Assembly: GCA_964604135.1 (NCBI GenBank)
Contig: CAZRXU010000001.1
Span: forward strand, 16,535-80,534
Source of the DNA: an uncultured bacterium
GTDB taxonomy: Bacteria; Fermentibacterota; Fermentibacteria; Fermentibacterales; JCC-6
DNA: 64,000 nucleotides
Reading direction: 5' to 3'
Below, one piece after another: positions 3,787-60,442 of this stretch; position 1 is the first letter of the stretch, and each line of letters begins with the position of its first letter. A model generated the notes under the pieces. It ran no database searches and was not told where the DNA came from. It was given only the letters and a program-made list of their open reading frames with translations. Made by a program: the position numbers and the translations under genes.

Positions 3787-4850
3787 AAGTTCTTCAGGTG
3801 TATAAAGATGTTTTTCCTGAAGTTCATGGCGGCATCGAAAGGTACATTCACGATCTGTCACAGTTTCTTGTTTCCAGAGGTCACAGTGTGGAAGTTCTGG
3901 TTACAGGTGGTGGAAACAGAGAGGTGAACGGGCTGGCTGTCAAAGGTGTGTGGTCTCCTTTGCGGGTGCTTTCAAATCCTTTGGCACCGGGCTTCAGTCG
4001 GTTTCTTTCAGAAACAGGCGCAGATGTTGTTCATTTTCATCTGCCGTTGCCCACTGCCGTGCTTGCCTGGGAAGCTGTAAAAAACAAGAAACCGTATGTA
4101 GTTACCTATCACAGCGATATTGTCCGCCAGGCTTTTGTGATGCCCGTTTACGGCCCTGTTCTTAGAAGATTTCTTGCAGGGGCACACAAAGTGATTGTTT
4201 CCTCAGACAACTACACACGAACCTCGCTGTACCTGAAATACCTGCACAACACACAGACTATACCCATCGGGGCCGATCTGGAAAGGTTCAAGCCGGATGA
4301 AACGGCAGCAAAAACCTACTATCTGTTCGTGGGAAGGTTCAGAAGATACAAAGGGATTTTTGTTCTTCTGGATGCCTGGCGGATGATGGAGAACCCTCCA
4401 GATCTCATCCTGGCCGGGGGAGGCGGGCTTGTGAAGAAGGTATACGCATTTATTGAGAAACACAAACTGCCGGTTACTGTTGTAAGCGATGTTGCAGACC
4501 AAAAACTTGTTGCTCTGTACCAGGGAGCAAAAGCTCTTATTCTTCCGTCCACACAGCGCAGTGAAGCCTTTGGAATGGTGCAGGTTGAGGCAATGGCCTG
4601 TGGTACGGCGGTGATTAGCAGCAACCTTCCTACAGGTGTGTCATGGGTAAACCGTCATGGTGAAACTGGTTTGCTTTTTACCCCCGGGGATTCATCTGAT
4701 CTGTGCCGGGCTGTAGCCAGTTTCGAAGAATTGAATACCACCAGAGCCACAATGTACACTCAGGCCAGAAGAAGGGCAGAAGCTCTTTTCAACTCTGGAA
4801 CACTCCTTAAGAAGGTTGAAGAATGCCTGATAGAAGCAACCGGGATCTAA
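3783..4850 (+). CDS. Glycosyltransferase family 1 (GT4-type)
   Basis: GMVQVEAMACGTAVISS...ETGLLF GT4 C-terminal motif. 4 nt GTGA overlap with the upstream GT suggests translational coupling. Confidence 0.85.
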   Translation: MKVLQVYKDVFPEVHGGIERYIHDLSQFLVSRGHSVEVLVTGGGNREVNGLAVKGVWSPLRVLSNPLAPGFSRFLSETGADVVHFHLPLPTAVLAWEAVKNKKPYVVTYHSDIVRQAFVMPVYGPVLRRFLAGAHKVIVSSDNYTRTSLYLKYLHNTQTIPIGADLERFKPDETAAKTYYLFVGRFRRYKGIFVLLDAWRMMENPPDLILAGGGGLVKKVYAFIEKHKLPVTVVSDVADQKLVALYQGAKALILPSTQRSEAFGMVQVEAMACGTAVISSNLPTGVSWVNRHGETGLLFTPGDSSDLCRAVASFEELNTTRATMYTQARRRAEALFNSGTLLKKVEECLIEATGI

Positions 4851-5341
4851 CGGTTCTTGTGTTGTATGCCACTGCACTTGGGGTGATCGACAGCCTTATT
4901 CCAAAGCCTGTTCCGTTTATGAAACTGGGGCTTGCCAATGTTGCGGCGGTTATAGCCGTTGTAAGGTACGGGTTTATAAAAACACTGGAGTTGAATTTAC
5001 TAAGAGTTTTTGCTGTGGCCCTTATCACTGGATTGCTGGCAACGCCCACCTTCATTCTCTCGGTGGCGGGAGCTGTAACAAGTGCTGCTGCAATGGCAAC
5101 CATGAGGCTTGTTTTCAGGAACAGACTGTCTTGTGCCGGTGTGTCTATAGCTGGGGCTGTAGCATCTCTATGGATACAGCTGATTGTTGCAAGAATTGTT
5201 CTGCCGGGACTTCCGCTGCGGAATATTGTATTATTGCTCACATTGTGGGGAGTTATTTCGGGCACAGTTACAGGTCTGATTGCACAGATGGCTGTGTACA
5301 GGAGACGGAAAACTGAAGTGTTGCGCAAAGACGAGCGTTAA
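4823..5341 (+). CDS. Gx transporter family membrane protein (heptaprenyl-diphosphate-synthase-component-I-like, PF07456-like)
   Basis: Five predicted TM helices. KLGLANVAAVIAV motif resembles the Gx transporter family. Assignment is by sequence pattern only. Confidence 0.5.
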   Translation: MPDRSNRDLTVLVLYATALGVIDSLIPKPVPFMKLGLANVAAVIAVVRYGFIKTLELNLLRVFAVALITGLLATPTFILSVAGAVTSAAAMATMRLVFRNRLSCAGVSIAGAVASLWIQLIVARIVLPGLPLRNIVLLLTLWGVISGTVTGLIAQMAVYRRRKTEVLRKDER

Positions 5342-5371
5342 ATTAAGATACAGTTACAGGAAGGACAGGTT

Positions 5372-5644
5372 TTGTTAAACGGGAGATCCACAGGGTTCTG
5401 GGTTTTCATAGCTGTTGCAGGCATGATGACGGGAACGGTGTTTGGCGAGGCTGTGGGTGCCGTATTGCCAGACAATTCTGTGGCGTTGAGGCAGTTCTTC
5501 AGCGGTGGGGCCGAGTTCTCTGTGGGGCCTCTGGGCTTCGATATCTACATACTCAGGTTTCAGATTGCTGAAATCGCGGTGAAACTGAATATAATGACAT
5601 TTGCCGGTCTTCTTGCGGTGGGTGTGCTATACAAATGGTTCTGA
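5372..5644 (+). CDS. Small hypothetical membrane protein (DUF4321-like?)
   Basis: 90 aa, two hydrophobic segments, sits between the Gx transporter gene and tatA. No recognisable catalytic motif. Confidence 0.35.
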   Translation: MLNGRSTGFWVFIAVAGMMTGTVFGEAVGAVLPDNSVALRQFFSGGAEFSVGPLGFDIYILRFQIAEIAVKLNIMTFAGLLAVGVLYKWF

Positions 5645-5662
5645 CTGCACAGGAGGGTTATT

Positions 5663-5860
5663 TTGGGTCGTATTGGAACCACAGAGCTTGTGCTGATTCT
5701 TGTGGTGCTTCTTCTTCTTTTCGGGGCAAAGAGGATTCCCGACATTGCCAGGGCAGTTGGAAGATCCATGAGTCAGTTCAAGAAGGGGTTGAAAGACGTT
5801 GATATTGAGTCAGATGAAATTGGCAGGGAAGGCAAAAATAAAGAGCAGAGCGAGGAGTAA
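5663..5860 (+). CDS. tatA: Sec-independent protein translocase TatA/E
   Basis: 65 aa. N-terminal GRIGTTELVLILVVLLLLFGAKRIPDIARAVGRS is the canonical TatA TM helix plus amphipathic helix. Apparent TTG start. Confidence 0.85.
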   Translation: MGRIGTTELVLILVVLLLLFGAKRIPDIARAVGRSMSQFKKGLKDVDIESDEIGREGKNKEQSEE

Positions 5861-5866
5861 CACTTT

Positions 5867-6469
5867 ATGGCAACTGTGAGCTACAGCGCTAAGGAAATTG
5901 ACTGCAAGATTGTGTATGCAGGCCCGGGGTTGTCAGGGAAAACAACAAATGTGAAGTATATCCACGGTCAGGTTGCTTCTGATTCAAGAGGAAAGCTGAT
6001 TTCTCTTGCCGCTGGCAACGACAGAACTCTGTTCTTTGATTTCCTCCCGCTTGATTCCGGTGAGATCAACGGTTTCAAAATCCGCCTTCACCTCTACAGT
6101 GTTCCTGGTCAGGCCATGTATTCAGACAGTCGCCGCCTGATTCTTCAGGGAGTTGACGGTATTGTTTTTGTTGCGGACTCCCAGGCATCAAGAATGGATG
6201 CTAATATTGCAAGTCTCCGGGATTTGAAAGAGAATCTCCGCAATCAGAGGAGGAAGGGTGTTAGTCTTGTTCTGCAGTGCAACAAGAGAGACTTGCACGA
6301 TGCCATACCGGTGGATGAGATTGTTCGTGAACTGGGGTTGTCTCGTGTTGCGTGTCTTGAATCTGTAGCATCTGAGGGCAAAGGCGTTTTTGAAACCCTG
6401 CGCAGGGTGAGCCGGATGGTAATAGCAAGGTTGCACAGACAATTTGAAATACTGGAGGGAAGAGCCTGA
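5867..6469 (+). CDS. mglA: MglA-family Ras-like small GTPase (paralog 1)
   Basis: P-loop YAGPGLSGKTTN. Switch I RTLFFDFLPL with conserved Arg and Thr. Switch II SVPGQ (catalytic Gln). NKRD G4 motif. Near-collinear with Myxococcus MglA. Confidence 0.9.
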   Translation: MATVSYSAKEIDCKIVYAGPGLSGKTTNVKYIHGQVASDSRGKLISLAAGNDRTLFFDFLPLDSGEINGFKIRLHLYSVPGQAMYSDSRRLILQGVDGIVFVADSQASRMDANIASLRDLKENLRNQRRKGVSLVLQCNKRDLHDAIPVDEIVRELGLSRVACLESVASEGKGVFETLRRVSRMVIARLHRQFEILEGRA

Positions 6470-7899
6470 TGTCTGATTCTTTCGTTGATCTGCTGCTTGT
6501 GAGGCTGGGAAGGGAAGAAGAGAAGAAGAAAGTACTGAAGCTTCTTATAACAACTCTTGATCTTTCCGTGACAGAGGCTGAAAATGCGGTGAACAATTCG
6601 CCGTCCGTGATAAAAGAAGCTGTTCCTATGAATGAAGCCAGGGTTATACAGAAAGACCTCTATCCCTACATCGATCTGCTCCCGCGTCTTGAGGACGAGA
6701 CCGGCACTGATGAAGAACAACTGTCTGAAGTTGTTCTGGATTCTTCAGGAGGAACAGTTGAACCAGGTGAAACCGAGGTTGAACTTGAAGCTGAAACAGC
6801 AGATATACAGGATGATATACAGTATGATATGCAGGAAGAGATAGTTCAGCAAACTGTAGATGAAGAACCAATCGTTATTACTTCAGCGAGCGAGGAAATA
6901 CTCTCTACGGTAAGGTGTCACATCTGCGGAAGAACACCCACAGACGGCGAAAGACTTGCGCCGTGCAGAACCTGTGGAGAGCTAACCTGCAGAGACTGTT
7001 TCGACAGAGTAGCTCACGTATGCAGCCATTGTGCCAGTGACGGAAAGTCTATAGACAGACCAAACAAGGGTGTCAGTGAAGAAAAGAGGGATGGGCTGGA
7101 GTTTGATTCGGAAGAGCCTGCCAGTGGGGAAGCAGATGCCGGATCAACAGTTTTAAAAACAGTTGTTGCTGTTTTCCTGGTACTTGCTCTGGCCGCCGTG
7201 TTTTATTTCATTGATCCGTTGAACCTGTTCACAGAGGTTGCCGGGGATTCCACATCTCAAACTGGGCTGGCTTCTGCCGACACATCCGATACGGCAGGTC
7301 AGGATTCTGTAGGTACGGAAAGTACGGTATCGCTGGACTCGGCGGTTGTTGAAGAAGATACACTGGCGGTAATAGGTGATTCTTCTGCTGTTGAAGACTT
7401 TTACGGTCTGCAGTTTATCACCCTGCCGGACAGTTGTGTTCCAGCGGAGAATCCACTGTCTATCAGTTACCATACAAGAGCTCCCAGGGAAACAGGCGCG
7501 GATATTCCCGCAGAAGGCAGCGAGACAGTGTTCAGAGAGCTGGAACTGCTGGCTTCGGCAATTCCTGTAGTAATAGACGATGGAGCATTTCTGGTTTACG
7601 ATGATTCTACATCAGTTTTAGTCATGGTAATTCTTCATCCGGAAGAAACAGAGGTAAGAATTCGTCTCATGAGAGATGCAGCTGTCATGCTGGAGCGTAC
7701 AAATATTGACCAGCTGGTACTTATCTACAGAGAAAACCGGTATCAGGAGGTTGTTCTGTACAGCTTGGTGCACGAGACTTTCTCTGAGGTGGAGGGTGTT
7801 CTCAGTCCAAGACAGTTTCAGGGCATAATGGGCTACACAGAGAGTTGCTGGGAGTTTGTCAGCGGTCCTGTGGTCTTGTGGCTTTCCGCCATGGAATAA
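6469..7899 (+). CDS. MglA-coupled hypothetical protein: N-terminal ribosomal L7/L12 C-terminal-domain-like fold, acidic linker, 4-Cys zinc ribbon, single TM helix, C-terminal domain
   Basis: ATG overlaps the mglA stop by 1 nt (TGATG). Residues ~20-70 (KVLKLLITTLDLSVTEAENAVNNSPSVIKEAVPMNEARVIQKDL) follow the L7/L12 CTD pattern. D/E-rich linker. CHICG...CRTCG...CRDC...CSHC zinc-ribbon. TM helix VVAVFLVLALAAVFYFI. No obvious roadblock/LC7 domain. Confidence 0.7.
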   Translation: MSDSFVDLLLVRLGREEEKKKVLKLLITTLDLSVTEAENAVNNSPSVIKEAVPMNEARVIQKDLYPYIDLLPRLEDETGTDEEQLSEVVLDSSGGTVEPGETEVELEAETADIQDDIQYDMQEEIVQQTVDEEPIVITSASEEILSTVRCHICGRTPTDGERLAPCRTCGELTCRDCFDRVAHVCSHCASDGKSIDRPNKGVSEEKRDGLEFDSEEPASGEADAGSTVLKTVVAVFLVLALAAVFYFIDPLNLFTEVAGDSTSQTGLASADTSDTAGQDSVGTESTVSLDSAVVEEDTLAVIGDSSAVEDFYGLQFITLPDSCVPAENPLSISYHTRAPRETGADIPAEGSETVFRELELLASAIPVVIDDGAFLVYDDSTSVLVMVILHPEETEVRIRLMRDAAVMLERTNIDQLVLIYRENRYQEVVLYSLVHETFSEVEGVLSPRQFQGIMGYTESCWEFVSGPVVLWLSAME

Positions 7900-7933
7900 T
7901 CGTTCTTACAAGAAAATCAGGAGTTTTGTATCC

Positions 7934-10129
7934 ATGCCAGGTAATACGAAGAAAAAGCTTGTTATCATAGAATCCCCAGCTAAAGCAAAGAGCTTGAAAA
8001 GCTATCTTGGCAGCGGTTGGGATGTTGTTGCTTCATATGGTCATGTAAGAGATCTGCCCCTCAACCGTCTTGGTGTAAACATCGAAACGCTCGAACCCGT
8101 TTACACGATTCTTCCAAAGAAAAGGGCCGCAGTTGCGAAGCTTAGGAAAACCGCATTAGCGTACAGCGAAATCTATCTTGCAGCGGATCCTGACCGCGAG
8201 GGAGAGGCTATCTGCTGGCACATCTATAAGCTGCTGCAGGGTAAAGGGATTTCTTTCAAGAGAATCAGGTTCAATTCTATAACAAGAGAAGCAGTTCAGG
8301 CGGCTTCCAAAACGGCATCAGATATAGATATGAACTTGGTCGATGCACAGCAGGCGAGAAGAGTGATGGATCGTCTGGTGGGTTACAAAATAAGCCCGTA
8401 TCTGTGGAGAACAGTAGGCAAAGGGCTCAGTGCTGGAAGAGTGCAGACTGTGGCTCTGAGGTTAATAACCGAAAGGGAAACAGCCATAAGAGGCTTTGTC
8501 CCCAGAGAGTTTTGGCCCATAACTGCAGAATTCAAGCAGAACAGCTCTGCATTTCAAACAAAACTGTTCAAAATAGACGGCAAAAAGGCTGACGGCGACA
8601 GGTATTCTCCTAAAAATCGTGAAGAAGCAGACAGTGTTCTCGGTCGAGCTCGCGGTGAGGGTTATTGGAAGATCAGTTCTGTGATAGAGAAGAACAAAGC
8701 AAGAAAACCTGTTCCCCCGTTTATTACAAGCTCTCTTCAGGTTGCAGCATCAGCCAGGTTGTCCATGCCGCCATCGGTTACAATGCGGCTGGCTCAGGAT
8801 CTGTATGAAGGTTTTGAAATCGATGGGGAAACTACCGGTCTTATTACGTACATGAGAACGGATTCAGTGCGAATTGAACCAGCTGCAATTGCAGACTGCC
8901 GCAGTTATGTGGAAAACAAATGGGGTATTAAGGAACTTTCGCCTAAACCAAGACGATACAGAGCCAGCGGTGGAGCCCAGGATGCCCACGAAGCCATAAG
9001 ACCTACAGATGTGAGGCGAACACCCGAAGAGATGGCTGGCATCCTGGATGACAGACACCTTAAACTCTATTCTCTTGTATGGAAAAGGTTTGTGGCTACT
9101 CAGATGGCTGATGCTGTTGTGGCTGAAACCACAGTTCTGGTTTCTGGCCGAGAGCTGTTATTCAGGGCTGCCGGACAGAAGGTTGTCAGCCTGGGATTTG
9201 CGCTGGCAGACCCGGCACAGCTTAAAATAACCGGTAAAATCCCAGAGCTTTCAGAAGGGGCCGTTGAACTTCTGGGAGTAACAGCAGAGCAGAAATTCAC
9301 AAAGCCGCAGCCCAGGTATTCTGAAGCATCATTGGTGTCTGAAATGAAGAAGAAGGCTATAGGAAGGCCTTCTACTTATGTGTCTATTTTATCAACGCTG
9401 AAAAAAAGAACCTATGTAGAAGCCCGGGAAAAGAAACTTTTCCCCACAGAAGTGGGAATGGTTACTGCAGACCTTCTTGTTAAGCTTTTTCCTCATCTGT
9501 TTGATGTTGGTTTCACTGCCACCCTTGAGGAGCTGCTCGATCTTGTGGCTTCAGGAAAAACAAGTTACAACCAGGCTGTAAGGAAACTGTATACTCCACT
9601 TGCTGCATCCCTGGAAGAGGCCATGAGACGCCTTCCCGAGATCAAAGCATCCATGGTAAAGGAAACTGCTGAGAAGTGTCCCCTTTGCGGTAAGGTGCTT
9701 CTAGAGAAGATGGGAAAATACGGCAAATTCTTGGCATGCAGCGGATTCCCATCTTGTCGGTATACACGCCCTGTGGATGAAGATTCCGCATCCACTGTGT
9801 CGGATGTCAAATGTGCAAAGTGCGGTAAAAACATGCTTCTTAGAAACGGCAGATACGGCCGATATCTTGCCTGTTCAGATCCGGCATGCGGGTATACTCA
9901 GCCTGTTCCTGTGGGCGTGAAGTGTCCTGTCCCTGACTGCAGCGGTGAGCTTGTTGAAAGGCGGTCACGCAGGGGTAAGGTGTTTTATTCATGCAGCAGA
10001 TACCCCGACTGCGACTTTGCCATGTGGAACAAGCCTGTGGCAAGGGAGTGTCCCAGGTGTGGATTTCCTCTGCTTGAAGAGAGAAAGAAAGGTGTGTTCT
10101 GTCCCAGTTGCAAGAAGAAGATAGACTGA
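7934..10129 (+). CDS. topA: DNA topoisomerase I (type IA) with C-terminal zinc ribbons
   Basis: Toprim N-terminus KKLVIIESPAKAKSL. Active-site region ITYMRTDS. Several C-terminal C4 zinc-ribbon repeats. The track ORF starts at 7856; the internal ATG at 7934 fits the canonical N-terminus. Confidence 0.93.
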   Translation: MPGNTKKKLVIIESPAKAKSLKSYLGSGWDVVASYGHVRDLPLNRLGVNIETLEPVYTILPKKRAAVAKLRKTALAYSEIYLAADPDREGEAICWHIYKLLQGKGISFKRIRFNSITREAVQAASKTASDIDMNLVDAQQARRVMDRLVGYKISPYLWRTVGKGLSAGRVQTVALRLITERETAIRGFVPREFWPITAEFKQNSSAFQTKLFKIDGKKADGDRYSPKNREEADSVLGRARGEGYWKISSVIEKNKARKPVPPFITSSLQVAASARLSMPPSVTMRLAQDLYEGFEIDGETTGLITYMRTDSVRIEPAAIADCRSYVENKWGIKELSPKPRRYRASGGAQDAHEAIRPTDVRRTPEEMAGILDDRHLKLYSLVWKRFVATQMADAVVAETTVLVSGRELLFRAAGQKVVSLGFALADPAQLKITGKIPELSEGAVELLGVTAEQKFTKPQPRYSEASLVSEMKKKAIGRPSTYVSILSTLKKRTYVEAREKKLFPTEVGMVTADLLVKLFPHLFDVGFTATLEELLDLVASGKTSYNQAVRKLYTPLAASLEEAMRRLPEIKASMVKETAEKCPLCGKVLLEKMGKYGKFLACSGFPSCRYTRPVDEDSASTVSDVKCAKCGKNMLLRNGRYGRYLACSDPACGYTQPVPVGVKCPVPDCSGELVERRSRRGKVFYSCSRYPDCDFAMWNKPVARECPRCGFPLLEERKKGVFCPSCKKKID

Positions 10130-10998
10130 TACTGGAGTCTTTCAGAGATGAACTTTCCTACGGCAGAGGGCTTTCTCCACTCACAGTCAAGGCTTACCTT
10201 ACTCAGATGACGGATTTTGCTGTTACCGGAGGATCCTTCGCAGATGGGTTTGATGTTTCCAGGATGCGGGAGTATCTCATGAGGCGTGCCTCTGCCGGTA
10301 TGTCTCCTGGCAGCATTGCAAGAATGGTGAGCTGTTTTCACACCTTTTCCAGATGGCTTGTGGAGACCGGTCGTTCTGAAGTTGACCACGGTGAGCTGCT
10401 CAGGGCTCCAAGAGTACCCAGAAGGCTTCCAGGGTTTCTGGGCGTCAGTGAGGTTAAAAGCGTTTTGAACGCATATGATGTTTCCACCACAATAGGTGTA
10501 CGCAACAGAGCAGTGGTTGAACTTCTTTACGGTGCGGGTTTGAGGGCAGCCGAAGCTTCATCTCTTATACTTCAGAACACAAGTGTTGCCGCAGGTACTG
10601 TGAAGGTTATGGGAAAAGGCAGAAGAGAAAGAATTGTTCCAATTCCAGTTGGAACATCAGAGTATATTGAGAAATGGATTCATAGAAGAAAAGAATTTAC
10701 AGCTGGTGATGATCCTGGAACTCTTTTCATAAGTGTCAGAGGTCGGAAACTTGACCCCAGAGATATACGGCGTATTGTTTCTGCTGGTGTTAACGGTGCA
10801 GCCAGAGCTGCAGGGGCGACTCCTCACACCTTCAGGCACAGTTTTGCCACACATCTTCTTAACGAGGGAGCAGATATCAGAACGGTTCAGGAACTGCTGG
10901 GGCATGCCGGGATAGGAACAACGCAGATATATACGCATCTTACAACGGAAAAACTAAAAGGTGTTTACATGAAAACACATCCCAGGGGGAAGAAGTGA
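10108..10998 (+). CDS. Tyrosine site-specific recombinase XerC/XerD family
   Basis: N-terminal SAM-like domain. C-terminal catalytic R...HxxR...Y motifs (HTFRHSFATHLL, LLGHAGIGTTQIYTHL). Confidence 0.88.
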   Translation: MQEEDRLILESFRDELSYGRGLSPLTVKAYLTQMTDFAVTGGSFADGFDVSRMREYLMRRASAGMSPGSIARMVSCFHTFSRWLVETGRSEVDHGELLRAPRVPRRLPGFLGVSEVKSVLNAYDVSTTIGVRNRAVVELLYGAGLRAAEASSLILQNTSVAAGTVKVMGKGRRERIVPIPVGTSEYIEKWIHRRKEFTAGDDPGTLFISVRGRKLDPRDIRRIVSAGVNGAARAAGATPHTFRHSFATHLLNEGADIRTVQELLGHAGIGTTQIYTHLTTEKLKGVYMKTHPRGKK

Positions 10999-13940
10999 AT
11001 ATCAGAAGTGCATTTACCGCAGACAGGCTTGTTGCACTGGCTGCAGCCATGGCCGCTTTCATCGTTTATACTGTTACACTGGCGCCATCCGTCAGCTTCT
11101 GGGACAGTGGAGAGTACATTACCTGCTCATGGGTTGCAGGGATTCCACACCCGCCGGGAGTACCCTTCTTTGTTCTCCTGGGAAGAGTAAGCACTTTACT
11201 GTTCAGTTTCATCCCTTCCATCGCGGCAAGGGTTAACCTTATGTGCGCGATTGCGGGAACTGTAACCATTGGTTTGGTGGCGAGGCTGATTCAGAGGTGG
11301 AGCATAAGGCTGGGGTTCGAACCGTGGCTTTACAGGCCGGTCTCCGTTGCAGGAGCACTTATGGCAGCTTTCAGCTACACAGTGTGGAGAAACAACAATG
11401 CAACTGAGACCTACGCCATGGCAGCCCTTCTTTCACTTCTTATTCTGTGGGTTTTTGATCTGTGGATAGAAAGAAGACTGCACGGAAAACCGGCAGGTCG
11501 TCAGCTGCTTCTTACCGGTTACCTGATGACGCTTGCAATCGGCAACCATCTCAGTGCTCTTATAGTCACTCTTCCGATAGTGGCCATGTACGTTCTGTAC
11601 GCCATCAGGAAGAAGGCCTTCGAGTGGAGATCACCAGGGTTTCCTGTGATGTTCCTGGGCCTTATGGTTCTTGCTTTCAGTATTCATCTCTATATGCCTG
11701 TTCGTGCCATACAGAACCCCGAGATTAACGAGACAAACCCCTCTGTATGGACAGAATTCAAGGAAGCTATTGAAAGAAAGCAGTATGGTCAGGTTTCCAT
11801 ATTCAGCAGAAAAGGGCCATTTAAGGATCAGCTTGGCCTGTTCGCCGAGTACCTGTCATGGCAGGTGGGAAGACCGGAAGCATGGACAGATGCATTTGGT
11901 ACTTCTGGCGGTGTGGTCTGGGCATTCCTCTGGATGGGGATGGCCGTTCTTGCAGTTACAGGTCTTGTGGTTATGGGAAAAAGGCGTCCGGATCTTTTGG
12001 TTCTTGTAGGATTGTCTTTTATCATGGCTAGTTTCGCCTTTGTGGTGTATCTGAATTTTAAGACAGGTCCCGAGGGTACATCACTGGGTGAAGTCCGCGA
12101 GAGAGATTACTTTTTCGGAGCATCTTTTATCTTCTTTGCCGTTCTTTCAATGACAGGGCTGGGTTCGTTGTTTGCTTCGGTAAAAAGCAGGTTTGCAAAG
12201 AATGCAGCATGGGCAATGGTTGTTTTTCCCATGATATCTCTGGGAATGAACTGGCATCACTGTGACCGTTCAGGCGATTATGCTGCACGGGATTATGGTA
12301 TCAATCTGCTTCAGTCATGTCCGGAAAATGCCGTGATAATCACCAATGGAGACAACGACACCTTTCCACTGTGGTTTGCCCAGGGGGTGCTTGAAGTTCG
12401 CCGTGATGTGATTATCTCCAACTTAAGCCTTATGAATACAAGGTGGTACGTGAAGCAGCTTGTCGCGAAAGATCCTGATCTTCTCAGCTATTCACAGGAA
12501 ACAATAGACCACATGCAGCCTGTGTTCGTCTGGGGACCCAATTTCTTTCATGTTTCATCGGACGGGTTGCCTGTTACAGGCGAATATGACAGGCAGGTGC
12601 TTGACGATACATTCAATGGCCAATGGCCGTGGGTGTTGAATGACGGCAACACAAGCATTCCTGTGCCATCAATGGGAAGAGGAAACCAGGGTTCAGTTCC
12701 AATGCAGGATCTTCTGCTTATAGACATGCTTAGAAACAGAAGCATTCACGGCAGGGAAGTGATGATCGCCGGAACTGTTTCCGGGGAGAACCGAAGCTAT
12801 GTTGAGAACTACCTTCAGATGCAGGGAATTGCTTTCAGGGTAATGCACGAGCCTGTCCGTGAGTTTGTAAACACCGATCTGGGATGGACCCTTGCAGACA
12901 ACTTACTTACCACAGGCCTTGCCGACCCTTCCGTTTACAAGGATGATCAGGCGGTTCAGATCGCCAGAAACTATGTAAGTGCCTATAATCGTCTCGCATA
13001 TCAGTTCATGGCTGAGGGCAACACGGAAATGGTTGGTGTGTGCCTGGACAGGTCAGAAACTTTGTTTGCGGCAATGCCGGAGGAGTGGCTCAGCATTATG
13101 TACAGCTTCGTTCTACTGAAGGCGAGGTATATTCACGGCAAAGATGGAGCCGACGCTGCAATAGAATATATGCAGCAGGCAACAGCGCACATGGACAGTA
13201 TGGCAGTTGAATACAACAATCCGTCCGCGGCTGCTGCAGCATCTCAGCTGCTGTCTATGTCCAGCGAGTTTGATCAGGAGTCAGCGTTTGACGGAGTAAT
13301 TGATTTCATAAGTGATGGTTCTCCTGCCCAGGAATGGATACGCATAGAGAAATATCTTTCATTCGGAAACTACATTGCCGCCCGGGAACATCTGGAGAAT
13401 CTTCAGACGGATTGGGGTTCGGAATACCAGACAGTTCTCGATCTTATGGGGCAGACGGTTGACCAGTACACCATATACTGCCCTGTGACCACAGGTCTTA
13501 GCATGCTCGACACCGCACTTGCATTCGTTTTCAACCACACCGATCAGGAAAGCTCAGCACTGGAATGGAAACAGGATATAACAGCCGCATCCATAGCAGT
13601 TGAAATGGCTGGGCTTGCCGCCAGAGGAAGTGTTATGGCGGCAGTTTCACTGGGAAGCATTATGGTTCCCCAGATGAAGACAGACAGAGAAGCACAGTTG
13701 ATCACTGATCTGTGTGATAAGTTTGTTTCCAATCCTGATCACGCAAAGGAGATGGCTCTGTGGTTTCTTCTTTCCACCGAAACATTTTCATCGGAAGCAA
13801 GAGCGGTGAGTCTTGCCGACGGCGGCTACGCAGGTCTTGCCTATGCTGTTCTTGTAAACGATCTTGAAATCGGTGAAGAATATGCACTATCCCTGGATAT
13901 AACAGGGAATACCCTGGCTCATCTGCTGGAGGCGCAATGA
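10995..13940 (+). CDS. DUF2723-family (TMEM260-like) polytopic membrane protein, putative GT-C glycosyltransferase, with large C-terminal helical-repeat region
   Basis: 981 aa. N-terminal LAPSVSFWDSGEYITCSWVAGIPHPPGVPFFVLLGRV matches the DUF2723 signature. ~10 TM helices followed by ~500 aa of soluble helical repeats. Confidence 0.7.
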   Translation: MNIRSAFTADRLVALAAAMAAFIVYTVTLAPSVSFWDSGEYITCSWVAGIPHPPGVPFFVLLGRVSTLLFSFIPSIAARVNLMCAIAGTVTIGLVARLIQRWSIRLGFEPWLYRPVSVAGALMAAFSYTVWRNNNATETYAMAALLSLLILWVFDLWIERRLHGKPAGRQLLLTGYLMTLAIGNHLSALIVTLPIVAMYVLYAIRKKAFEWRSPGFPVMFLGLMVLAFSIHLYMPVRAIQNPEINETNPSVWTEFKEAIERKQYGQVSIFSRKGPFKDQLGLFAEYLSWQVGRPEAWTDAFGTSGGVVWAFLWMGMAVLAVTGLVVMGKRRPDLLVLVGLSFIMASFAFVVYLNFKTGPEGTSLGEVRERDYFFGASFIFFAVLSMTGLGSLFASVKSRFAKNAAWAMVVFPMISLGMNWHHCDRSGDYAARDYGINLLQSCPENAVIITNGDNDTFPLWFAQGVLEVRRDVIISNLSLMNTRWYVKQLVAKDPDLLSYSQETIDHMQPVFVWGPNFFHVSSDGLPVTGEYDRQVLDDTFNGQWPWVLNDGNTSIPVPSMGRGNQGSVPMQDLLLIDMLRNRSIHGREVMIAGTVSGENRSYVENYLQMQGIAFRVMHEPVREFVNTDLGWTLADNLLTTGLADPSVYKDDQAVQIARNYVSAYNRLAYQFMAEGNTEMVGVCLDRSETLFAAMPEEWLSIMYSFVLLKARYIHGKDGADAAIEYMQQATAHMDSMAVEYNNPSAAAAASQLLSMSSEFDQESAFDGVIDFISDGSPAQEWIRIEKYLSFGNYIAAREHLENLQTDWGSEYQTVLDLMGQTVDQYTIYCPVTTGLSMLDTALAFVFNHTDQESSALEWKQDITAASIAVEMAGLAARGSVMAAVSLGSIMVPQMKTDREAQLITDLCDKFVSNPDHAKEMALWFLLSTETFSSEARAVSLADGGYAGLAYAVLVNDLEIGEEYALSLDITGNTLAHLLEAQ

Positions 13941-15818: not shown

Positions 15819-16397
15819 ATGCACAGGTCAGGTAATGAGGTTGCATACAAAATAGTCTACTACGGTCCCGGTCTTTCCGGGAAGACTACCAATCTCAGGG
15901 GTATACGCGACATCATCGCTCCTGAAAACAGAGGAAGGCTTGTAACTCTTTGCACCAGGTGCGAGAGAACAGTGTTTTTCGACTTTCTTCCTGTTAATTT
16001 CGCCAGGATCGGAGACATGAAGGTTAAGCTCCATCTGTATTCTGTACCCGGTCAGGCGTACTATGCTCTCAGCAGAAGGGTAATCCTCGATGGTATAGAC
16101 GGGGTGGTTTTCGTTGCCGACAGCCAGAAAGAGAGGGCGGAGGCGAATATCAGCACAATAGATGACCTGGAGCACAACCTGAAAAGCTACGGCCTCGACA
16201 TGTCCATGATTCCCATGGTTCTGCAGTTTAACAAGCGCGACCTTCCCGGTATAATGTCTACCGCCAGAATGAATGAAGAATTAAACAGATTCCAGTGGCC
16301 CACTGTAGAGTCGGTTGCCATTGGCGGAAGTGGTCCTGCGGAAACCCTCAAGATTATTGCTACCCAGATGGCCAAGCGCCATGCACGCACAGGCTGA
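15819..16397 (+). CDS. mglA: MglA-family Ras-like small GTPase (paralog 2)
   Basis: YYGPGLSGKTTN P-loop. RTVFFDFLPV switch I. SVPGQ switch II. NKRD motif. ~45% identical to paralog 1 by eye. Confidence 0.88.
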   Translation: MHRSGNEVAYKIVYYGPGLSGKTTNLRGIRDIIAPENRGRLVTLCTRCERTVFFDFLPVNFARIGDMKVKLHLYSVPGQAYYALSRRVILDGIDGVVFVADSQKERAEANISTIDDLEHNLKSYGLDMSMIPMVLQFNKRDLPGIMSTARMNEELNRFQWPTVESVAIGGSGPAETLKIIATQMAKRHARTG

Positions 16398-18516
16398 CAG
16401 CAGGTCAAAACTCCGCACAGCGCTGCTTCTGCTGTTTCTGGTAGCAGGCGGTTTTGTTTTCCGGAGTGTATTTGCCACATCAGTCATGCCGCCTCCTGCC
16501 AGAATGCAGGGGGAGACAACCCAGGCGTACAGATATACAAAGATGGTTTCAGACGGCGATGGTATACCTACTCTGGATACGCTGGTTATGCGCCCACAGG
16601 GTTTGATAACGGCAGAGAATTCTATTTTTGAAGAGTATATAGCAGGGGGAATACACCGGGTAACAGGTGGTGATTTTGATTCGTTCCTGCATTTGTTCTG
16701 TCTTCTGTTTCCGCTTCTGGTGGTTCCTGTAATCTTCTACTGGATGCGAAGTTCGAACTTCTCCAGTCAGGAGTCTTCCACAGGTGCAGCACTGTACGCT
16801 GTGTTTCTACCGGCACTTCTTCGGGCCAGGGGGGAAAGTTTTTACCGTGAAACAGTGGCACTGCCGCTGATAGTACTCACTTTTGCCCTTATAGATATGA
16901 GCAGCGGTAAAAAAGAGTCTTTGAAATACTCCGTTGCCGCGGCTCTGACACTGTTCCTGGCTCTGGCATCCTGGAAGGTAACAGCGTTTGTATCCTTCTT
17001 TGTTTTCGTATGGATGGCCTTCAAAAGGCCAGGGCTTCGTACTGTTATTCCGCTTGCTGCAAGTCAGTTTCTTGCCTCTGTTGTTCTAAGCCATATGCGT
17101 CACGACGGAGCTGTTCTTTCACCAGCCGTTCTTATGGCTGCTGCAGCTGTGGTTTCAGCGATGTACCGAAGCAGAATTGTTCCATGGGCAGGTCTGGCGG
17201 TTTCTTCAGCTTCCGGTTTCTTTTTCAGGTCTTCCTCGGGCGGGCACGTAGCTGCGGTGATTGCTGCAAAGCTGAAATTCCTGTTCAGTCATCCAGAAAA
17301 TCCTGCTTTGCTTTCAGATGATGCCCGGCTTTTCTGGGTAAGTGGCTACACTTCTCCGTCATCGGGGCAGATCCTTCTTCTGTTCGGCTTTGCATTTGTT
17401 GCGGCTGTTCTGGGGTGGAAGCGGTTCAGAGAGAAAACAGGGCAGTCACTGATGCTGTTCCTGATACCTCTTTCAGTTGCCGGATACCTGTTTTTTGACA
17501 GGCTCATGGTTGTTCTAGCCATCGGGATCATTCCTCTAGTGGTTGCTGCCTGCAGGAATCGCAGGTGGGCTCTTCCGGTTGTTCTTACAGTATTTGGACT
17601 GCAGACCATGTACGCCCCGGGGATAGCAGGTGTGCTTTCAAGAGCAGGTCTGGAATTTGAAGATTCGTCATCTCTTCTAACCGAGAACGAGCTTACCGGG
17701 CTTATCAGGTGGGCGAAAGACAACCACGGAACAGTGCTTTCATTCTGGCATATTTCAGGTCTGCTTTCCGCTTACGCGAACATGCCTGTGGTTACCCACA
17801 CTTTTTTTGAAAACGCAGAAAACCGGGAAACCATCATAGAGTATGCCAGAAGAAGCTTTGGAACCGAGCAGGAAATGATAGACTTCATGGAAGAAAAGGG
17901 TGCAGACTACCTGATTTACCAGGCCGACTTTGTTTTCGACAGATCACCGCAAGGTCTTGTGTATCTGGCCGGTCTTACAGAGATTCCCGATGGTTGTCTC
18001 GCCCTTCGACTTCACTACTATCCCCAGTCTCTTGAGACACTTGGAATAGTCTGGCAGGGACCTTCCGTAAGGGTGTTCGGTATAAACGAAAGCGCGGAAG
18101 AATTGCCAAGGCAGCCGCTGTGGGAAGTTCGCTACGCACCTTTTCTGCATGACAGTGAAATGGCAAACGCAGTTGTGAATTTACCTGTGGAAACGGCTAT
18201 CTATCTTGCAGATCAGGGGATGGAAACAGGTAATATCCAGAAGATATCAGCGGCACTGCTGCTGTTGTCAGGATCTCCCGATGAGGTGCCATCCGATGCT
18301 GCAGTTGGTCTTCTGCAAGAGCTTCTTATGGCTCATCTGGACGGGCACTACTCAATAGAAGATCTGGAAGATGATTTTGTAACGTACCTGCGCGTCTGGG
18401 GGCCGGATCCTCAACTTCGTTTTGACCTGGTAAGGCTGCTTCGAAACAGCAGCCTTTTTGACAGGGCACAGTATCACATGGAAATAATTGAAAGAATGGG
18501 AACGCAGAACCTATGA
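16381..18516 (+). CDS. MglA-coupled large polytopic membrane protein with C-terminal soluble domain (possible GT-C-like fold)
   Basis: Start (ATG 16381) overlaps the mglA-2 3' end by ~17 nt; the track's upstream start at 16315 lies inside mglA-2. At least 10 predicted TM helices over the first ~430 aa, then a ~280 aa soluble domain. No recognisable catalytic motif. A FWHISG stretch faintly recalls the WWDYG motif of oligosaccharyltransferases, which is weak evidence only. Confidence 0.6.
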   Translation: MHAQADSRSKLRTALLLLFLVAGGFVFRSVFATSVMPPPARMQGETTQAYRYTKMVSDGDGIPTLDTLVMRPQGLITAENSIFEEYIAGGIHRVTGGDFDSFLHLFCLLFPLLVVPVIFYWMRSSNFSSQESSTGAALYAVFLPALLRARGESFYRETVALPLIVLTFALIDMSSGKKESLKYSVAAALTLFLALASWKVTAFVSFFVFVWMAFKRPGLRTVIPLAASQFLASVVLSHMRHDGAVLSPAVLMAAAAVVSAMYRSRIVPWAGLAVSSASGFFFRSSSGGHVAAVIAAKLKFLFSHPENPALLSDDARLFWVSGYTSPSSGQILLLFGFAFVAAVLGWKRFREKTGQSLMLFLIPLSVAGYLFFDRLMVVLAIGIIPLVVAACRNRRWALPVVLTVFGLQTMYAPGIAGVLSRAGLEFEDSSSLLTENELTGLIRWAKDNHGTVLSFWHISGLLSAYANMPVVTHTFFENAENRETIIEYARRSFGTEQEMIDFMEEKGADYLIYQADFVFDRSPQGLVYLAGLTEIPDGCLALRLHYYPQSLETLGIVWQGPSVRVFGINESAEELPRQPLWEVRYAPFLHDSEMANAVVNLPVETAIYLADQGMETGNIQKISAALLLLSGSPDEVPSDAAVGLLQELLMAHLDGHYSIEDLEDDFVTYLRVWGPDPQLRFDLVRLLRNSSLFDRAQYHMEIIERMGTQNL

Positions 18517-60199: not shown

Positions 60200-60442
60200 A
60201 TGCAAACTAGAATACAGAAGTGGGGAAACAGTCTTGCCGTGCGGATTCCAAAGGCATTTGTAAGTGAGATAAACATCTCGTACGGTACTTCTGTAGATAT
60301 CACTGTTGATAAAGGCAGAATTATTATAGATCCAAATGTCAGACACGAGTACAGGCTGGAAGACCTGCTCAGTGATGTCAGCAGGCAGAATCTTCATGCC
60401 GAGGTTGAAACAGATGATGCTGTGGGGCGGGAAAGCCTGTGA
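60200..60442 (+). CDS. mazE: MazE/AbrB-family type II antitoxin
   Basis: IQKWGNSLAVRIPKAF swapped-hairpin AbrB/MazE motif. 80 aa. 4 nt overlap with the downstream toxin gene. Confidence 0.82.
   Translation: MQTRIQKWGNSLAVRIPKAFVSEINISYGTSVDITVDKGRIIIDPNVRHEYRLEDLLSDVSRQNLHAEVETDDAVGRESL

What the first reader, a model, noticed from the sequence alone, without database searches (positions are those of the whole stretch)
5867..7899. MglA-like GTPase translationally coupled to a non-MglB partner with an L7/L12-CTD-like domain, zinc ribbon and TM helix
The first MglA paralog has all catalytic hallmarks (GPGLSGKTT, switch-I Arg/Thr, PGQ). Its stop overlaps the start of a 476 aa protein (TGATG), as mglA-mglB pairs usually do. 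The partner does not look like a roadblock/LC7 MglB. Its first ~70 aa follow the fold pattern of the ribosomal bL12 C-terminal domain, the GTPase-recruiting element of the ribosome stalk. This is followed by an acidic linker, a 4-Cys zinc ribbon, one TM helix and a ~230 aa distal domain. A bL12-CTD-like module next to a small GTPase suggests a GAP/GEF-like or GTPase-docking role borrowed from the translation machinery.
Basis: partly seen in the sequence, partly recalled or inferred. Interest (0 to 1): 0.62.

Follow-up and report, generated by a model that had tools for sequence, protein, structure and literature searches.

The report
MglA GTPase with novel membrane partner
In the candidate phylum Fermentibacteria, the polarity GTPase MglA is encoded next to an uncharacterised membrane-spanning protein instead of its usual regulator MglB, and that protein's cytoplasmic tip is a copy of the ribosomal stalk domain bL12-CTD; what the protein does has not been tested.

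Summary
ORF 5867-6469 is a bona fide group-1 MglA (E=1e-63 to solved MglA; R53, T54, Q82 present). Its TGA overlaps the ATG of a 476-aa ORF (6469-7899).

The partner is a bitopic N-in/C-out inner-membrane protein:
- aa 1-76 are a real bL12-CTD homologue: Pfam PF00542 30.1 bits (cut-off 25.9), AF2 pLDDT ~96, top ten Foldseek hits all bL12 CTD, TM 0.81 to 1ctf.
- An acidic disordered linker follows.
- The zinc module has eight Cys (FYVE/RING-like), not four.
- One TM helix and a D/S/T-rich linker follow.
- The ~165-aa periplasmic alpha/beta domain has no detectable relative. It is not Roadblock (hhalign 0.15% to MglB; no Pfam hit; no significant Foldseek hit).

The family was found only in Fermentibacteria. 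mglA-1 lies directly upstream in 58 of 59 evaluable species genomes. The three nearest outgroup MglAs all have mglB upstream.

A functional link is inferred, not shown. The whole region is syntenic and gene overlaps are common there. One lineage keeps the partner without mglA-1. The bL12 factor-binding residues are not conserved.

Best reading: a phylum-specific membrane adaptor for MglA-1 (confidence 0.42). This is a new variant of a known kind, of moderate interest.

The parts
5867..6469 (+). mglA-1: group-1 MglA GTPase, 200 aa, with P-loop aa 19-27, Arg finger R53, T54, S78-V-P-G-Q82 and NKRD
   Evidence: ORF. phmmer against the PDB gives 3t12 E=1.1e-63 and M. xanthus MglA E=2.6e-62. 56% identity to T. 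thermophilus MglA. Named 'gliding-motility protein MglA' by NCBI in orthologues.
6454..6471 (+). Coupling junction: Shine-Dalgarno-like GGAGGG (6454-6459), mglA-1 stop TGA (6467-6469), partner ATG (6469-6471)
   Evidence: Sequence. The junction is -8 to +2 nt in 50 of 52 Fermentibacteria loci, 30 of them with a 1-nt overlap, and a purine-rich Shine-Dalgarno-like stretch (GGAGG/GGAAGG, AGAGAGG in some lineages) lies just upstream of the start in most loci.
6469..7899 (+). Partner gene: 476-aa bitopic membrane protein of a family found only in Fermentibacteria
   Evidence: 119 full-length homologues, all named ones from Fermentibacteria, Sabulitectum or Aegiribacteria. 61 genome loci, every taxonomically named one Fermentibacteria/Hyd24-12 and the rest unnamed MAGs.
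6469..6696 (+). aa 1-76: bL12-CTD-like domain (b-a-a-b-a-b)
   Evidence: PF00542 at 30.1 bits, above the 25.9 cut-off, E=6e-7, with 14 of 27 members hitting. AF2 pLDDT ~96 with strands 5-10, 46-53, 68-72 and helices 16-30, 34-42, 54-64. Foldseek top ten hits are all bL12 CTD; 1ctf TM 0.81, rmsd 1.6 A. hhalign to E. coli bL12 gives E=3.6e-5. The domain profile retrieves multi-PF00542 proteins from 1.84 billion representatives.
6697..6861 (+). aa 77-131: acidic disordered linker (43-187 aa across the family)
   Evidence: pLDDT below 50. Mean D+E fraction 39%, and length is variable.
6862..7053 (+). aa 132-195: conserved helix (ITSASEExL) plus an 8-Cys two-zinc FYVE/RING-like module
   Evidence: Invariant C150, C153, C166, C169, C174, C177, C185, C188, H151 and H183. 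pLDDT 90-94. 27 of 29 members give sub-threshold FYVE hits. Foldseek matches FYVE 1vfy at TM 0.53.
7147..7209 (+). aa 227-247: single transmembrane helix, N-in/C-out
   Evidence: Kyte-Doolittle 19-residue maximum 2.52 here, family mean 2.56, present in 115 of 115 homologues. K+R count is 2.87 before the helix against 0.31 after it.
7210..7404 (+). aa 248-312: DPLxLF motif followed by a periplasmic D/S/T-rich low-complexity linker
   Evidence: family mean 37% D+S+T.
7405..7896 (+). aa 313-476: periplasmic alpha/beta domain with no detected relative (a-b-b-a-b-b-a-a-a; invariant H390, R397, E422)
   Evidence: AF2 pLDDT 93.7, pTM 0.87. No Pfam hit in 34 members. No PDB sequence hit. No Foldseek hit at E<=1e-3 in PDB or BFVD. 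hhalign to MglB gives 0.15% probability. No homologue found outside the family.
15819..16397 (+). mglA-2: divergent MglA paralogue, also overlapping a downstream membrane-protein gene; the only MglA near the partner in the lineage that lacks mglA-1

Best explanation
The 476-aa protein is a Fermentibacteria-specific bitopic inner-membrane adaptor that works with the MglA-1 GTPase.

Shown:
- It is co-translated with a canonical group-1 MglA in a locus that lacks MglB.
- Its cytoplasmic half carries a bL12-CTD-like head on a 43-187-residue acidic flexible tether. The tether leads to a conserved helix and a membrane-proximal two-zinc finger.
- Its other half is a well-folded periplasmic domain.

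Inferred:
- The cytoplasmic modules bind MglA-1, most likely in a nucleotide-dependent way. This would recruit or hold MglA-1 at the membrane and couple it to an envelope structure contacted by the periplasmic domain, for example the type IV pilus machinery, the only motility system reported in these rods.
- This would resemble the way M. xanthus GltJ, another bitopic protein with two small cytoplasmic domains joined by a flexible linker, senses MglA-GTP.
- The mobile head on a flexible tether copies the design of the ribosomal stalk, but it probably uses a different binding surface.

Whether it acts as effector, anchor, GAP or GEF is open.
For: - MglA-1 is a true MglA.
- mglA-1 lies directly upstream of the partner in 58 of 59 evaluable species-level genomes. 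The junction is -8 to +2 nt in 50 of 52 loci, with an embedded Shine-Dalgarno-like motif.
- No Roadblock gene lies in the locus, in the 64-kb window, or in any Fermentibacteria locus fetched. All three nearest outgroup MglAs (58% identity) have a Robl_LC7 gene 10-16 nt upstream.
- The MglA-1 clade is sharply separate: at least 73% identity inside it and at most 60% outside.
- That clade has 14 diagnostic substitutions, several of them by switch I and II (E50G, T78S, V83A, A87D). Its net charge is +7.6 against +2.5 in outgroups, which faces an acidic partner.
- The cytoplasmic modules are as conserved as TopA, while the periplasmic domain evolves about twice as fast.
- Topology is N-in/C-out in 115 of 115 homologues.
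- The bL12-CTD fold is established.
- Precedent: the GltJ ZnR-linker-GYF region binds MglA-GTP (PMC11135422).
- Hyd24-12 cells are diderm rods without flagella that carry type IV pilus genes (PMC5030696).
Against: - No interaction was tested.
- The whole ~20-kb region (ptsI to mglA-2) keeps its gene order across the phylum. Overlapping junctions also join unrelated neighbours. Adjacency and coupling are therefore weak evidence.
- One lineage (P0118, L053) has lost mglA-1 yet keeps an intact, conserved partner.
- A mirror-tree test gave the same partial correlation for the control TopA (0.68) as for the partner domains (0.68-0.70).
- Residues that bL12 uses to bind translation GTPases are variable here.
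- bL12-CTD repeats also occur in proteins that look secreted, so the fold does not by itself imply GTPase binding.
Confidence: 0.42

Rival explanations
1. The two genes are merely neighbours. The partner is an envelope, division or secretion-related membrane protein whose position next to mglA-1 reflects frozen synteny in a compact, co-directional housekeeping array. It has no functional tie to MglA.
For: - The entire ptsI-GT4-GT4-HepI-DUF4321-tatA-(mglA)-partner-topA-xerC-TMEM260-hslVU order is conserved.
- 4-nt and larger overlaps join xerC/TMEM260-like/hslV/hslU and the two GT4 genes.
- The partner persists without mglA-1 in the P0118/L053 lineage, with its invariant residues largely intact.
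- The mirror-tree signal is no higher than for TopA.
Against: - mglA elsewhere is almost always paired with its regulator: 390 of 449 in PMC4316618, and 3 of 3 nearest outgroups here. In this phylum that regulator's place in the locus is empty, and this gene is the one stop/start-coupled to mglA-1.
- The MglA-1 clade has fixed substitutions near the switch regions and a raised positive charge opposite an acidic partner.
- The lineage without mglA-1 still keeps mglA-2 nearby.
Confidence: 0.3
2. One reading: the bL12-CTD-like head docks on the MglA G domain through the same helix a4/a5 face that the ribosomal stalk uses for EF-Tu, EF-G, IF2 and RF3. It thereby acts as a GAP- or GEF-like element that replaces MglB.
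For: - The domain is a genuine bL12-CTD homologue on a flexible tether.
- MglB is absent from the locus.
- From general knowledge, the bL12 CTD recruits translational GTPases and stimulates their GTPase activity.
Against: - Positions aligned to bL12 V66, I69, K70, R73, K81 and K84 have entropies of 1.5-2.7 bits, which puts most of them among the most variable positions. Only the K65 equivalent is 83% conserved.
- The invariant residues form a different surface: b1 VDLLLVRL, R58, Q61, Y65-P66, b3 DLLPR.
- Group-1 MglA already carries its own Arg finger and Gln.
- Small Ras-like GTPases lack the G' domain and the EF-Tu helix D context that bL12 contacts (general knowledge).
Confidence: 0.1
3. 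The bL12-like head binds ribosomes or translational GTPases rather than MglA, for example by tethering them at the membrane. Alternatively it acts like ClpS, which has the same fold, as a protease adaptor.
For: After bL12, the next Foldseek hits are ClpS structures. The zinc module's outer CxxC knuckles weakly resemble bL28 (E=0.0035).
Against: The bL12 factor-binding residues are not kept. There is no bL12 N-terminal domain for binding bL10. ClpS matches have only 9-14% identity. No Clp or ribosomal genes lie in the locus.
Confidence: 0.06
4. The partner is a disguised MglB: its C-terminal domain is a divergent Roadblock/LC7 GAP, which would make this an ordinary MglAB pair.
For: The first elements of the C-terminal domain (a-b-b-a-b-b) superficially recall the start of the Roadblock fold.
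Against: - hhalign probability to M. xanthus MglB is 0.15%.
- No Robl_LC7 hit in 34 members.
- No MglB or Roadblock structure appears among the top 50 Foldseek PDB hits, and none reaches E<=1e-3.
- The domain ends in three helices instead of a fifth strand.
- It lies on the periplasmic side of the TM helix, so it is out of reach of cytoplasmic MglA.
Confidence: 0.01

Closest known systems
GltJ of Myxococcus xanthus (Agl-Glt gliding machinery; PMC11135422)
   Same: Both are bitopic inner-membrane proteins with an N-in topology. In each, the cytoplasmic part is two small globular domains, one zinc-binding, joined by a long flexible linker, followed by a TM helix and a periplasmic domain. Both are associated with MglA; for GltJ the linker binds MglA-GTP.
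   Different: There is no sequence or domain homology. GltJ has an N-terminal 4-Cys ZnR and a GYF domain, whereas this protein has a bL12-CTD-like head and an 8-Cys FYVE/RING-like finger in the opposite order. GltJ works together with MglB and AglZ, and no MglB was found near this locus. Binding to MglA is untested here.
Canonical mglB-mglA module (Roadblock/LC7 GAP plus group-1 MglA; PMC4316618)
   Same: The GTPase is an orthodox group-1 MglA with an intrinsic Arg finger and Gln. It is coupled to one conserved partner gene.
   Different: The partner lies downstream, not upstream. It is membrane-anchored, about three times larger, and has no Roadblock domain. The nearest outgroup MglAs keep mglB upstream.
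Ribosomal protein bL12 (L7/L12), C-terminal domain (PF00542; 1ctf)
   Same: Same fold and detectable homology: TM 0.81, rmsd 1.6 A, 25% identity, and a Pfam score above the gathering cut-off. Both are globular heads on a flexible tether.
   Different: This protein has no bL10-binding N-terminal domain. The factor-binding residues on helices a4 and a5 are not conserved, and a different invariant surface is present. The head is attached to a membrane protein.
Orphan MglA-family GTPases (M. xanthus SofG, Bdellovibrio MglA)
   Same: These are MglA proteins encoded without a neighbouring MglB that act through other partners.
   Different: Their known partners (bactofilins, a TPR protein and RomR, from general knowledge) are unrelated to this protein. 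Here the alternative neighbour is fixed across a whole phylum.
Non-ribosomal proteins with tandem bL12-CTD repeats (e.g. Nannocystis pusilla WP_346660302.1)
   Same: They are the closest sequence relatives of the N-domain outside the family. They show that the stalk domain has been reused outside the ribosome.
   Different: They carry 3-7 repeats and lack the zinc finger, TM helix and periplasmic-domain architecture. Their function is unknown, and one looks secreted.

Membership tests
MglA family, group 1 (for ORF 5867-6469) | Ras-like G domain with close similarity to characterised MglA | tested here: met
   E=1.1e-63 to T. thermophilus MglA and 2.6e-62 to M. xanthus MglA over the full length; 56% identity.
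MglA family, group 1 (for ORF 5867-6469) | Intrinsic arginine finger in switch I and a [TS]VPGQ G3 motif in place of DxxGQ | tested here: met
   R53-T54 and S78-V-P-G-Q82 were read from the translation. The criteria come from PMC4316618. T78 is replaced by S throughout the clade.
MglA family, group 1 (for ORF 5867-6469) | Coupling to an mglB gene within four genes (typical of the family, not obligatory) | tested here: not met
   No Robl_LC7 gene in the locus in any lineage. An MglB HMM finds nothing in the window or the loci.
Roadblock/LC7 MglB (for the partner) | Sequence membership in PF03259 or similarity to MglB | tested here: not met
   No Pfam hit for the whole protein or for 34 C-domains. 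hhalign to M. xanthus MglB gives 0.15% probability.
Roadblock/LC7 MglB (for the partner) | Roadblock fold (a-b-b-a-b-b-b) | tested here: not met
Roadblock/LC7 MglB (for the partner) | Cytoplasmic location, giving access to MglA | tested here: not met
   The C-domain follows a TM helix with a positive-inside bias that places it outside the cytoplasm. This is a prediction only.
bL12 C-terminal domain superfamily (PF00542) (for aa 1-76) | Profile score at or above the Pfam gathering cut-off | tested here: met
   30.1 bits against 25.9 on the isolated domain, and 25.7 bits in the full-length context. 14 of 27 family members hit at E<=0.01.
bL12 C-terminal domain superfamily (PF00542) (for aa 1-76) | b-a-a-b-a-b fold superposable on the bL12 CTD | tested here: met
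   pLDDT ~96. 1ctf gives TM 0.81 and rmsd 1.6 A over 68 columns, and the top ten hits are all bL12.
Ribosomal protein bL12 proper | N-terminal dimerisation/bL10-binding domain and hinge | tested here: not met
   The domain starts at residue 1 of the protein. TIGR00855 matches only the CTD part, at 21.5 bits against a cut-off of 84.4.
Ribosomal protein bL12 proper | Conserved factor-binding residues on helices a4 and a5 (K65, V66, I69, K70, R73, K81, K84; residue list from general knowledge) | tested here: not met
   The equivalent positions have entropies of 1.5-2.7 bits. Only the K65 equivalent is 83% conserved.
FYVE zinc finger (PF01363) (for aa 149-192) | Eight zinc ligands as four CxxC pairs with FYVE-like spacing | tested here: met
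   The spacing is C-x2-C-x12-C-x2-C-x4-C-x2-C-x7-C-x2-C and all eight Cys are invariant. Foldseek matches 1vfy at TM 0.53.
FYVE zinc finger (PF01363) (for aa 149-192) | Pfam score above the cut-off, and the PI3P-binding motifs (WxxD, RR/KHHCR) | tested here: not met
   The window protein scores 16.8 bits against the 27.8-bit cut-off. The best member E-value is 1.9e-4, which by its size should also be sub-threshold, though its bit score was not returned. Prok-RING and B-box models score similarly. The sequence reads LAPCRTCG with no basic cluster (motifs from general knowledge).
GltJ-like ZnR-linker-GYF switch proteins | GYF domain and N-terminal 4-Cys ZnR | tested here: not met
   No GYF hit in the Pfam scan. 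The zinc module has eight Cys and is membrane-proximal.
GltJ-like ZnR-linker-GYF switch proteins | [quoted passage not shown] | not testable with these tools
   This needs a multimer prediction or biochemistry.

The most novel reading that the evidence does not exclude
Fermentibacteria have replaced the universal Roadblock regulator MglB with a transmembrane protein. In this reading, its tethered domain derived from the ribosomal stalk (bL12-CTD) captures MglA and controls its nucleotide state. It would be an independent reuse of the ribosome's GTPase-recruiting design for a Ras-like polarity switch, wired directly to a periplasmic sensor domain of a previously unseen fold.
Probability: 0.15. 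Interest if true: 0.8.

Novelty: new variant of a known kind. Interest (0 to 1): 0.5.

Why it matters
MglA/MglB is the model bacterial small-GTPase polarity switch, and nearly all MglA genes travel with a Roadblock GAP. Here a whole phylum carries a highly conserved canonical MglA that lacks the neighbouring GAP. In its place sits a conserved, uncharacterised membrane-spanning protein.

If the two proteins interact, this would be a new class of MglA regulator or effector that links the switch directly across the inner membrane. It would also be the first assigned role for a bL12-CTD domain outside the ribosome.

The hypothesis is directly testable with two recombinant proteins. The periplasmic domain is also a confidently modelled fold with no detected relatives.

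Tried and rejected
- A fused-chain AF2 prediction was considered as a stand-in for AlphaFold-Multimer and dropped.
- The mirror-tree co-evolution test of MglA-1 against the partner domains gave partial r of 0.68-0.70, but the control TopA gave 0.68. It is uninformative.
- A profile search for remote homologues of the C-domain returned only fragments of the same family. Its profile had no hit at E<=0.1 among PDB sequences; the single match, a topoisomerase I at E=0.13, is chance.
- The promoter and terminator scan of 4700-8300 found nothing above the shuffled expectation.
- Literature searches for Fermentibacteria with MglA, and for PF00542 in non-ribosomal contexts, found nothing relevant.
- Whether mglB exists elsewhere in Fermentibacteria genomes could not be checked, because only about 20 kb around the locus and the 64-kb window were available.
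- The idea that the C-domain is a Roadblock domain was rejected.
Full report
**Observation**

ORF 5867-6469 (+) encodes 200 aa and ORF 6469-7899 (+) encodes 476 aa. The mglA-1 stop TGA (6467-6469) shares its A with the partner's ATG (6469-6471). A GGAGGG motif lies ten bases upstream of that ATG, inside the end of mglA-1. Upstream are a DUF4321 gene (5372-5644) and tatA (5663-5860, ending 6 nt before mglA-1). Downstream are topA, xerC, a TMEM260-like GT-C glycosyltransferase, hslV and hslU. A second MglA paralogue follows at 15819-16397.

**The GTPase**

MglA-1 matches solved T. thermophilus MglA at E=1.1e-63 and M. xanthus MglA at E=2.6e-62, over the full length. It is 56% identical to the Thermus protein. 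The second paralogue is 44% identical to it. MglA-1 has the P-loop GPGLSGKTT, R53-T54, S78-V-P-G-Q82 and NKRD. This is the group-1 signature of an intrinsic arginine finger plus glutamine described by Wuichet and Sogaard-Andersen (PMC4316618). It is therefore an orthodox MglA.

**Identity of the partner's source**

A search of 5.8 billion proteins gave 119 full-length homologues of 436-610 aa. Every named one is from Candidatus Fermentibacteria, Fermentibacteraceae, Sabulitectum or Aegiribacteria. A scan of one genome per GTDB species returned 61 loci. Every taxonomically named locus is Fermentibacteria or Hyd24-12, and the rest are unnamed 'uncultured bacterium' MAGs. An exhaustive HMMER search of 1.84 billion cluster representatives with the N-domain profile found about twenty representatives of this family and no other protein with this architecture.

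**N-terminal domain (aa 1-76)**

Five lines of evidence agree:
- Pfam PF00542 (Ribosomal_L12 C-terminal domain) scores 25.7 bits in the full protein. On the isolated domain it scores 30.1 bits, above the 25.9 cut-off, with E=6e-7. Fourteen of 27 diverse family members hit at E<=0.01.
- A profile of the family domain hits almost only bL12 chains among PDB sequences, at weak E-values of 0.055-0.37. hhalign against E. coli bL12 gives E=3.6e-5 over 46 columns at 30% identity.
- The AF2 model has pLDDT ~96 and the b-a-a-b-a-b order.
- Its ten best Foldseek hits in the PDB are all bL12 C-terminal domains. The best, 1ctf, has TM 0.81, rmsd 1.6 A and 25% identity. ClpS, which shares the fold, comes next.
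- Outside the family, the same profile retrieves proteins with 3-7 tandem, strongly scoring PF00542 repeats. One is annotated 'ribosomal protein L7/L12' in Nannocystis pusilla.

**The bL12 factor-binding surface is not conserved**

By general knowledge, the stalk domain binds EF-Tu, EF-G, IF2 and RF3 through conserved residues on helices a4 and a5. I mapped family conservation onto the bL12 alignment. Positions equivalent to V66, I69, K70, R73, K81 and K84 have entropies of 1.5-2.7 bits, and most are among the most variable in the domain. The invariant residues are elsewhere:
- strand b1 (V6-D7-L8-L9-L10-V11-R12-L13);
- E17 and E18;
- R58 and Q61 on helix a6;
- Y65 and P66;
- strand b3 (D69-L70-L71-P72-R73).

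The fold was borrowed, but the functional surface looks new.

**The rest of the cytoplasmic part**

- Residues 77-131 are disordered (pLDDT below 50). Across the family this linker varies from 43 to 187 residues and averages 39% D+E.
- A conserved helix (ITSASEExL) follows, and then a zinc module with eight invariant cysteines: C-x2-C-x12-C-x2-C-x4-C-x2-C-x7-C-x2-C, plus H151 and H183. It is modelled at pLDDT 90-94.
- Twenty-seven of 29 members give sub-threshold FYVE hits, and Prok-RING and B-box models score similarly. Foldseek matches the Vps27 FYVE domain at TM 0.53.
- The module is therefore a two-zinc FYVE/RING-like finger, not a 4-Cys ribbon. It lacks the basic PI3P-binding motif.

**Topology**

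All 115 full-length homologues have exactly one strongly hydrophobic segment (mean 19-residue Kyte-Doolittle score 2.56). The 15 residues before it hold on average 2.87 K+R, and the 15 after it hold 0.31. This predicts N-in/C-out. That topology fits a cysteine-rich zinc finger on the cytoplasmic side.

**C-terminal part**

After a conserved DPLxLF motif comes a ~65-residue D/S/T-rich linker. A globular domain follows, and AF2 models it very confidently (pLDDT 93.7, pTM 0.87). Its element order is a-b-b-a-b-b-a-a-a, and H390, R397 and E422 are invariant.

Tests for relatives of this domain were all negative:
- no Pfam hit in any of 34 members;
- no hit at E<=0.1 among PDB sequences, the single match being a topoisomerase I at E=0.13;
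- no homologue outside the family;
- no Foldseek hit at E<=1e-3 in either the PDB or BFVD, only weak alignments with TM at or below about 0.3, mostly to PD-(D/E)xK nucleases;
- hhalign probability to M. xanthus MglB of 0.15% (the MglB sequence was verified against 6h5b).

**Association with mglA**

- Among 59 species-level loci with usable upstream sequence, 58 have an MglA-1 orthologue (73-100% identity) immediately upstream of the partner.
- In 50 of 52 loci where both gene ends could be placed, the junction is -8 to +2 nt. Thirty of them have the one-base TGATG/TAATG overlap, and the Shine-Dalgarno-like motif is conserved.
- No Roadblock gene occurs in the locus in any lineage, among the small ORFs of the window, or anywhere in the window and all fetched loci when searched with an MglB HMM.
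- MglA-1 orthologues form a tight clade, with at least 73% identity inside it and a drop to 60% or less outside.
- All three nearest outgroup MglAs that I looked up have a Robl_LC7 gene 10-16 nt upstream. Two are from named phyla (Acidobacteriota and Gemmatimonadota) and one is from an unnamed 5.4-Mb genome.
- The Fermentibacteria clade has 14 fixed differences from those outgroups. They include E50G next to the arginine finger, T78S in G3, and V83A and A87D in switch II. Its mean net charge is +7.6 against +2.5. The cytoplasmic half of the partner is strongly acidic.

**Caveats on that association**

- The whole ~20-kb array from ptsI to mglA-2 keeps its order across the phylum. Conserved adjacency is therefore not specific to this pair.
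- Overlapping junctions also join plainly unrelated neighbours: xerC and the TMEM260-like gene, the TMEM260-like gene and hslV, hslV and hslU, and the two GT4 genes.
- One lineage (P0118, L053) has only 146 nt between tatA and the partner and no mglA-1. Its partner is nevertheless intact and keeps nearly all invariant residues. That lineage keeps mglA-2 after hslU.
- A mirror-tree test gave partial correlations of 0.68-0.70 between MglA-1 and the partner domains, and 0.68 for the control TopA, so it says nothing.
- The same analysis does show relative rates. The cytoplasmic modules (mean distance 0.42-0.46) are slightly more conserved than TopA (0.52). The periplasmic domain evolves about twice as fast (1.06).

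**Most likely mechanism**

I propose that the protein is a phylum-specific membrane adaptor for MglA-1.

What is shown is the architecture and the genetic coupling:
- a globular head on a long flexible acidic tether;
- a conserved helix and zinc finger close to the membrane;
- a TM helix;
- a folded periplasmic domain;
- co-translation with a canonical MglA whose usual neighbour is missing.

What is inferred is the function. One or more cytoplasmic modules would bind MglA-1, probably depending on the bound nucleotide. This would localise or regulate MglA-1 at the membrane and link it to an envelope structure.

The closest functional precedent is M. xanthus GltJ. GltJ is a bitopic protein whose ZnR-linker-GYF region binds MglA-GTP through the linker and switches conformation (PMC11135422). 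Hyd24-12 cells are diderm rods without flagella that carry type IV pilus genes (PMC5030696), so pilus polarity is the obvious process to be controlled.

The tethered head resembles the ribosomal stalk in design. The residue data argue against the same binding mode. I put this explanation at 0.42, the 'mere neighbours' alternative at 0.30, and the literal stalk-like GAP/GEF model at 0.10.

**Novelty**

No paper in the searchable library mentions MglA together with Fermentibacteria. All database names for the partner are 'hypothetical protein', or in single cases 'FYVE zinc finger domain-containing protein' and 'uncharacterized protein YlaI'.

The GTPase is a known kind. The partner's architecture, its periplasmic domain and the loss of the adjacent MglB are new. 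I rate the finding a new variant of a known kind, with moderate interest (0.5). The structural observations are solid and the hypothesis is easy to test, but the functional link rests on inference.

Noticed in passing
window 15819-18516: The second, more divergent MglA paralogue (44% identity to Thermus MglA) also overlaps the start of a downstream membrane-protein gene. That gene encodes a 733-aa polytopic protein with a weak Dpy19/GT-C-like hit (E=0.006). The pairing is kept in the lineage that lacks mglA-1 (L065 19736-20320 and 20298 onward). Both MglA paralogues of this phylum are thus coupled to membrane proteins rather than to MglB.
   Followed up: partly
L001 5855-6001; L053 7807-7950; L065-L067: One Fermentibacteria lineage (partner P0118, 565 aa) has no mglA-1 between tatA and the partner gene, only a 146-nt gap. 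It keeps a conserved partner and mglA-2. Whether mglA-1 was lost or moved could not be checked.
   Followed up: partly
window 7210-7404 and 10995-13940: The partner's periplasmic linker is rich in D, S and T, with conserved D-[ST] positions. A TMEM260-like GT-C glycosyltransferase lies three genes downstream, and two GT4 genes lie upstream. The linker could be an O-glycosylation substrate. This is speculation.
   Followed up: no
proteins P0127, P0128, P0132-P0138 (not in the window): Non-ribosomal proteins with 3-7 tandem, strongly scoring bL12-CTD (PF00542) repeats exist in metagenomes and in Nannocystis pusilla (WP_346660302.1, 593 aa). One (P0138) also carries Dockerin, SprB and Ig domains and looks secreted. 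Their function is unknown.
   Followed up: partly
window 6913-7035 (partner aa 149-189): The first and last CxxC knuckles of the zinc module (RCHICGRTPTxGE ... HVCxKCAxxGK) resemble the zinc knuckles of ribosomal protein bL28 (2jz6, E=0.0035). This is probably a generic knuckle similarity, but it is a second best match to a ribosomal protein within the same protein.
   Followed up: no
window 5867-6469 compared with P0246-P0296: The Fermentibacteria MglA-1 clade differs from MglB-coupled outgroup MglAs at 14 fixed positions: V4, S5, D12, S23, V29, H33, G50, L74, S78, A83, D87, Q94, D119 and S133. It also carries about five more net positive charges.
   Followed up: partly
L068 3093-3449; L069 3178-3498; L070 3165-3491: In all three outgroup mglB-mglA loci, a 106-118-aa ORF with no Pfam hit sits directly upstream of mglB, overlapping it by 4 nt in two of them. 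It may be a third conserved member of those modules.
   Followed up: no
window 7405-7896: The periplasmic domain's only structural matches in both the PDB and BFVD are to PD-(D/E)xK nuclease-fold proteins such as Rai1/DXO, MGME1 and Cas4. They are non-significant, with TM at or below about 0.3.
   Followed up: partly
L026 7909-7995; L030 1212-1298: Two loci have an 85-nt spacer between mglA-1 and the partner instead of the overlap, yet they still show TGATG at the partner start. This suggests a short remnant ORF or an early stop in mglA-1.
   Followed up: no
window 60439-60780: A 113-aa ORF reads like a MazF/PemK-type toxin (GDIVWLSFNPHAGHEQAGRRPALVLS). It was not tested.
   Followed up: no
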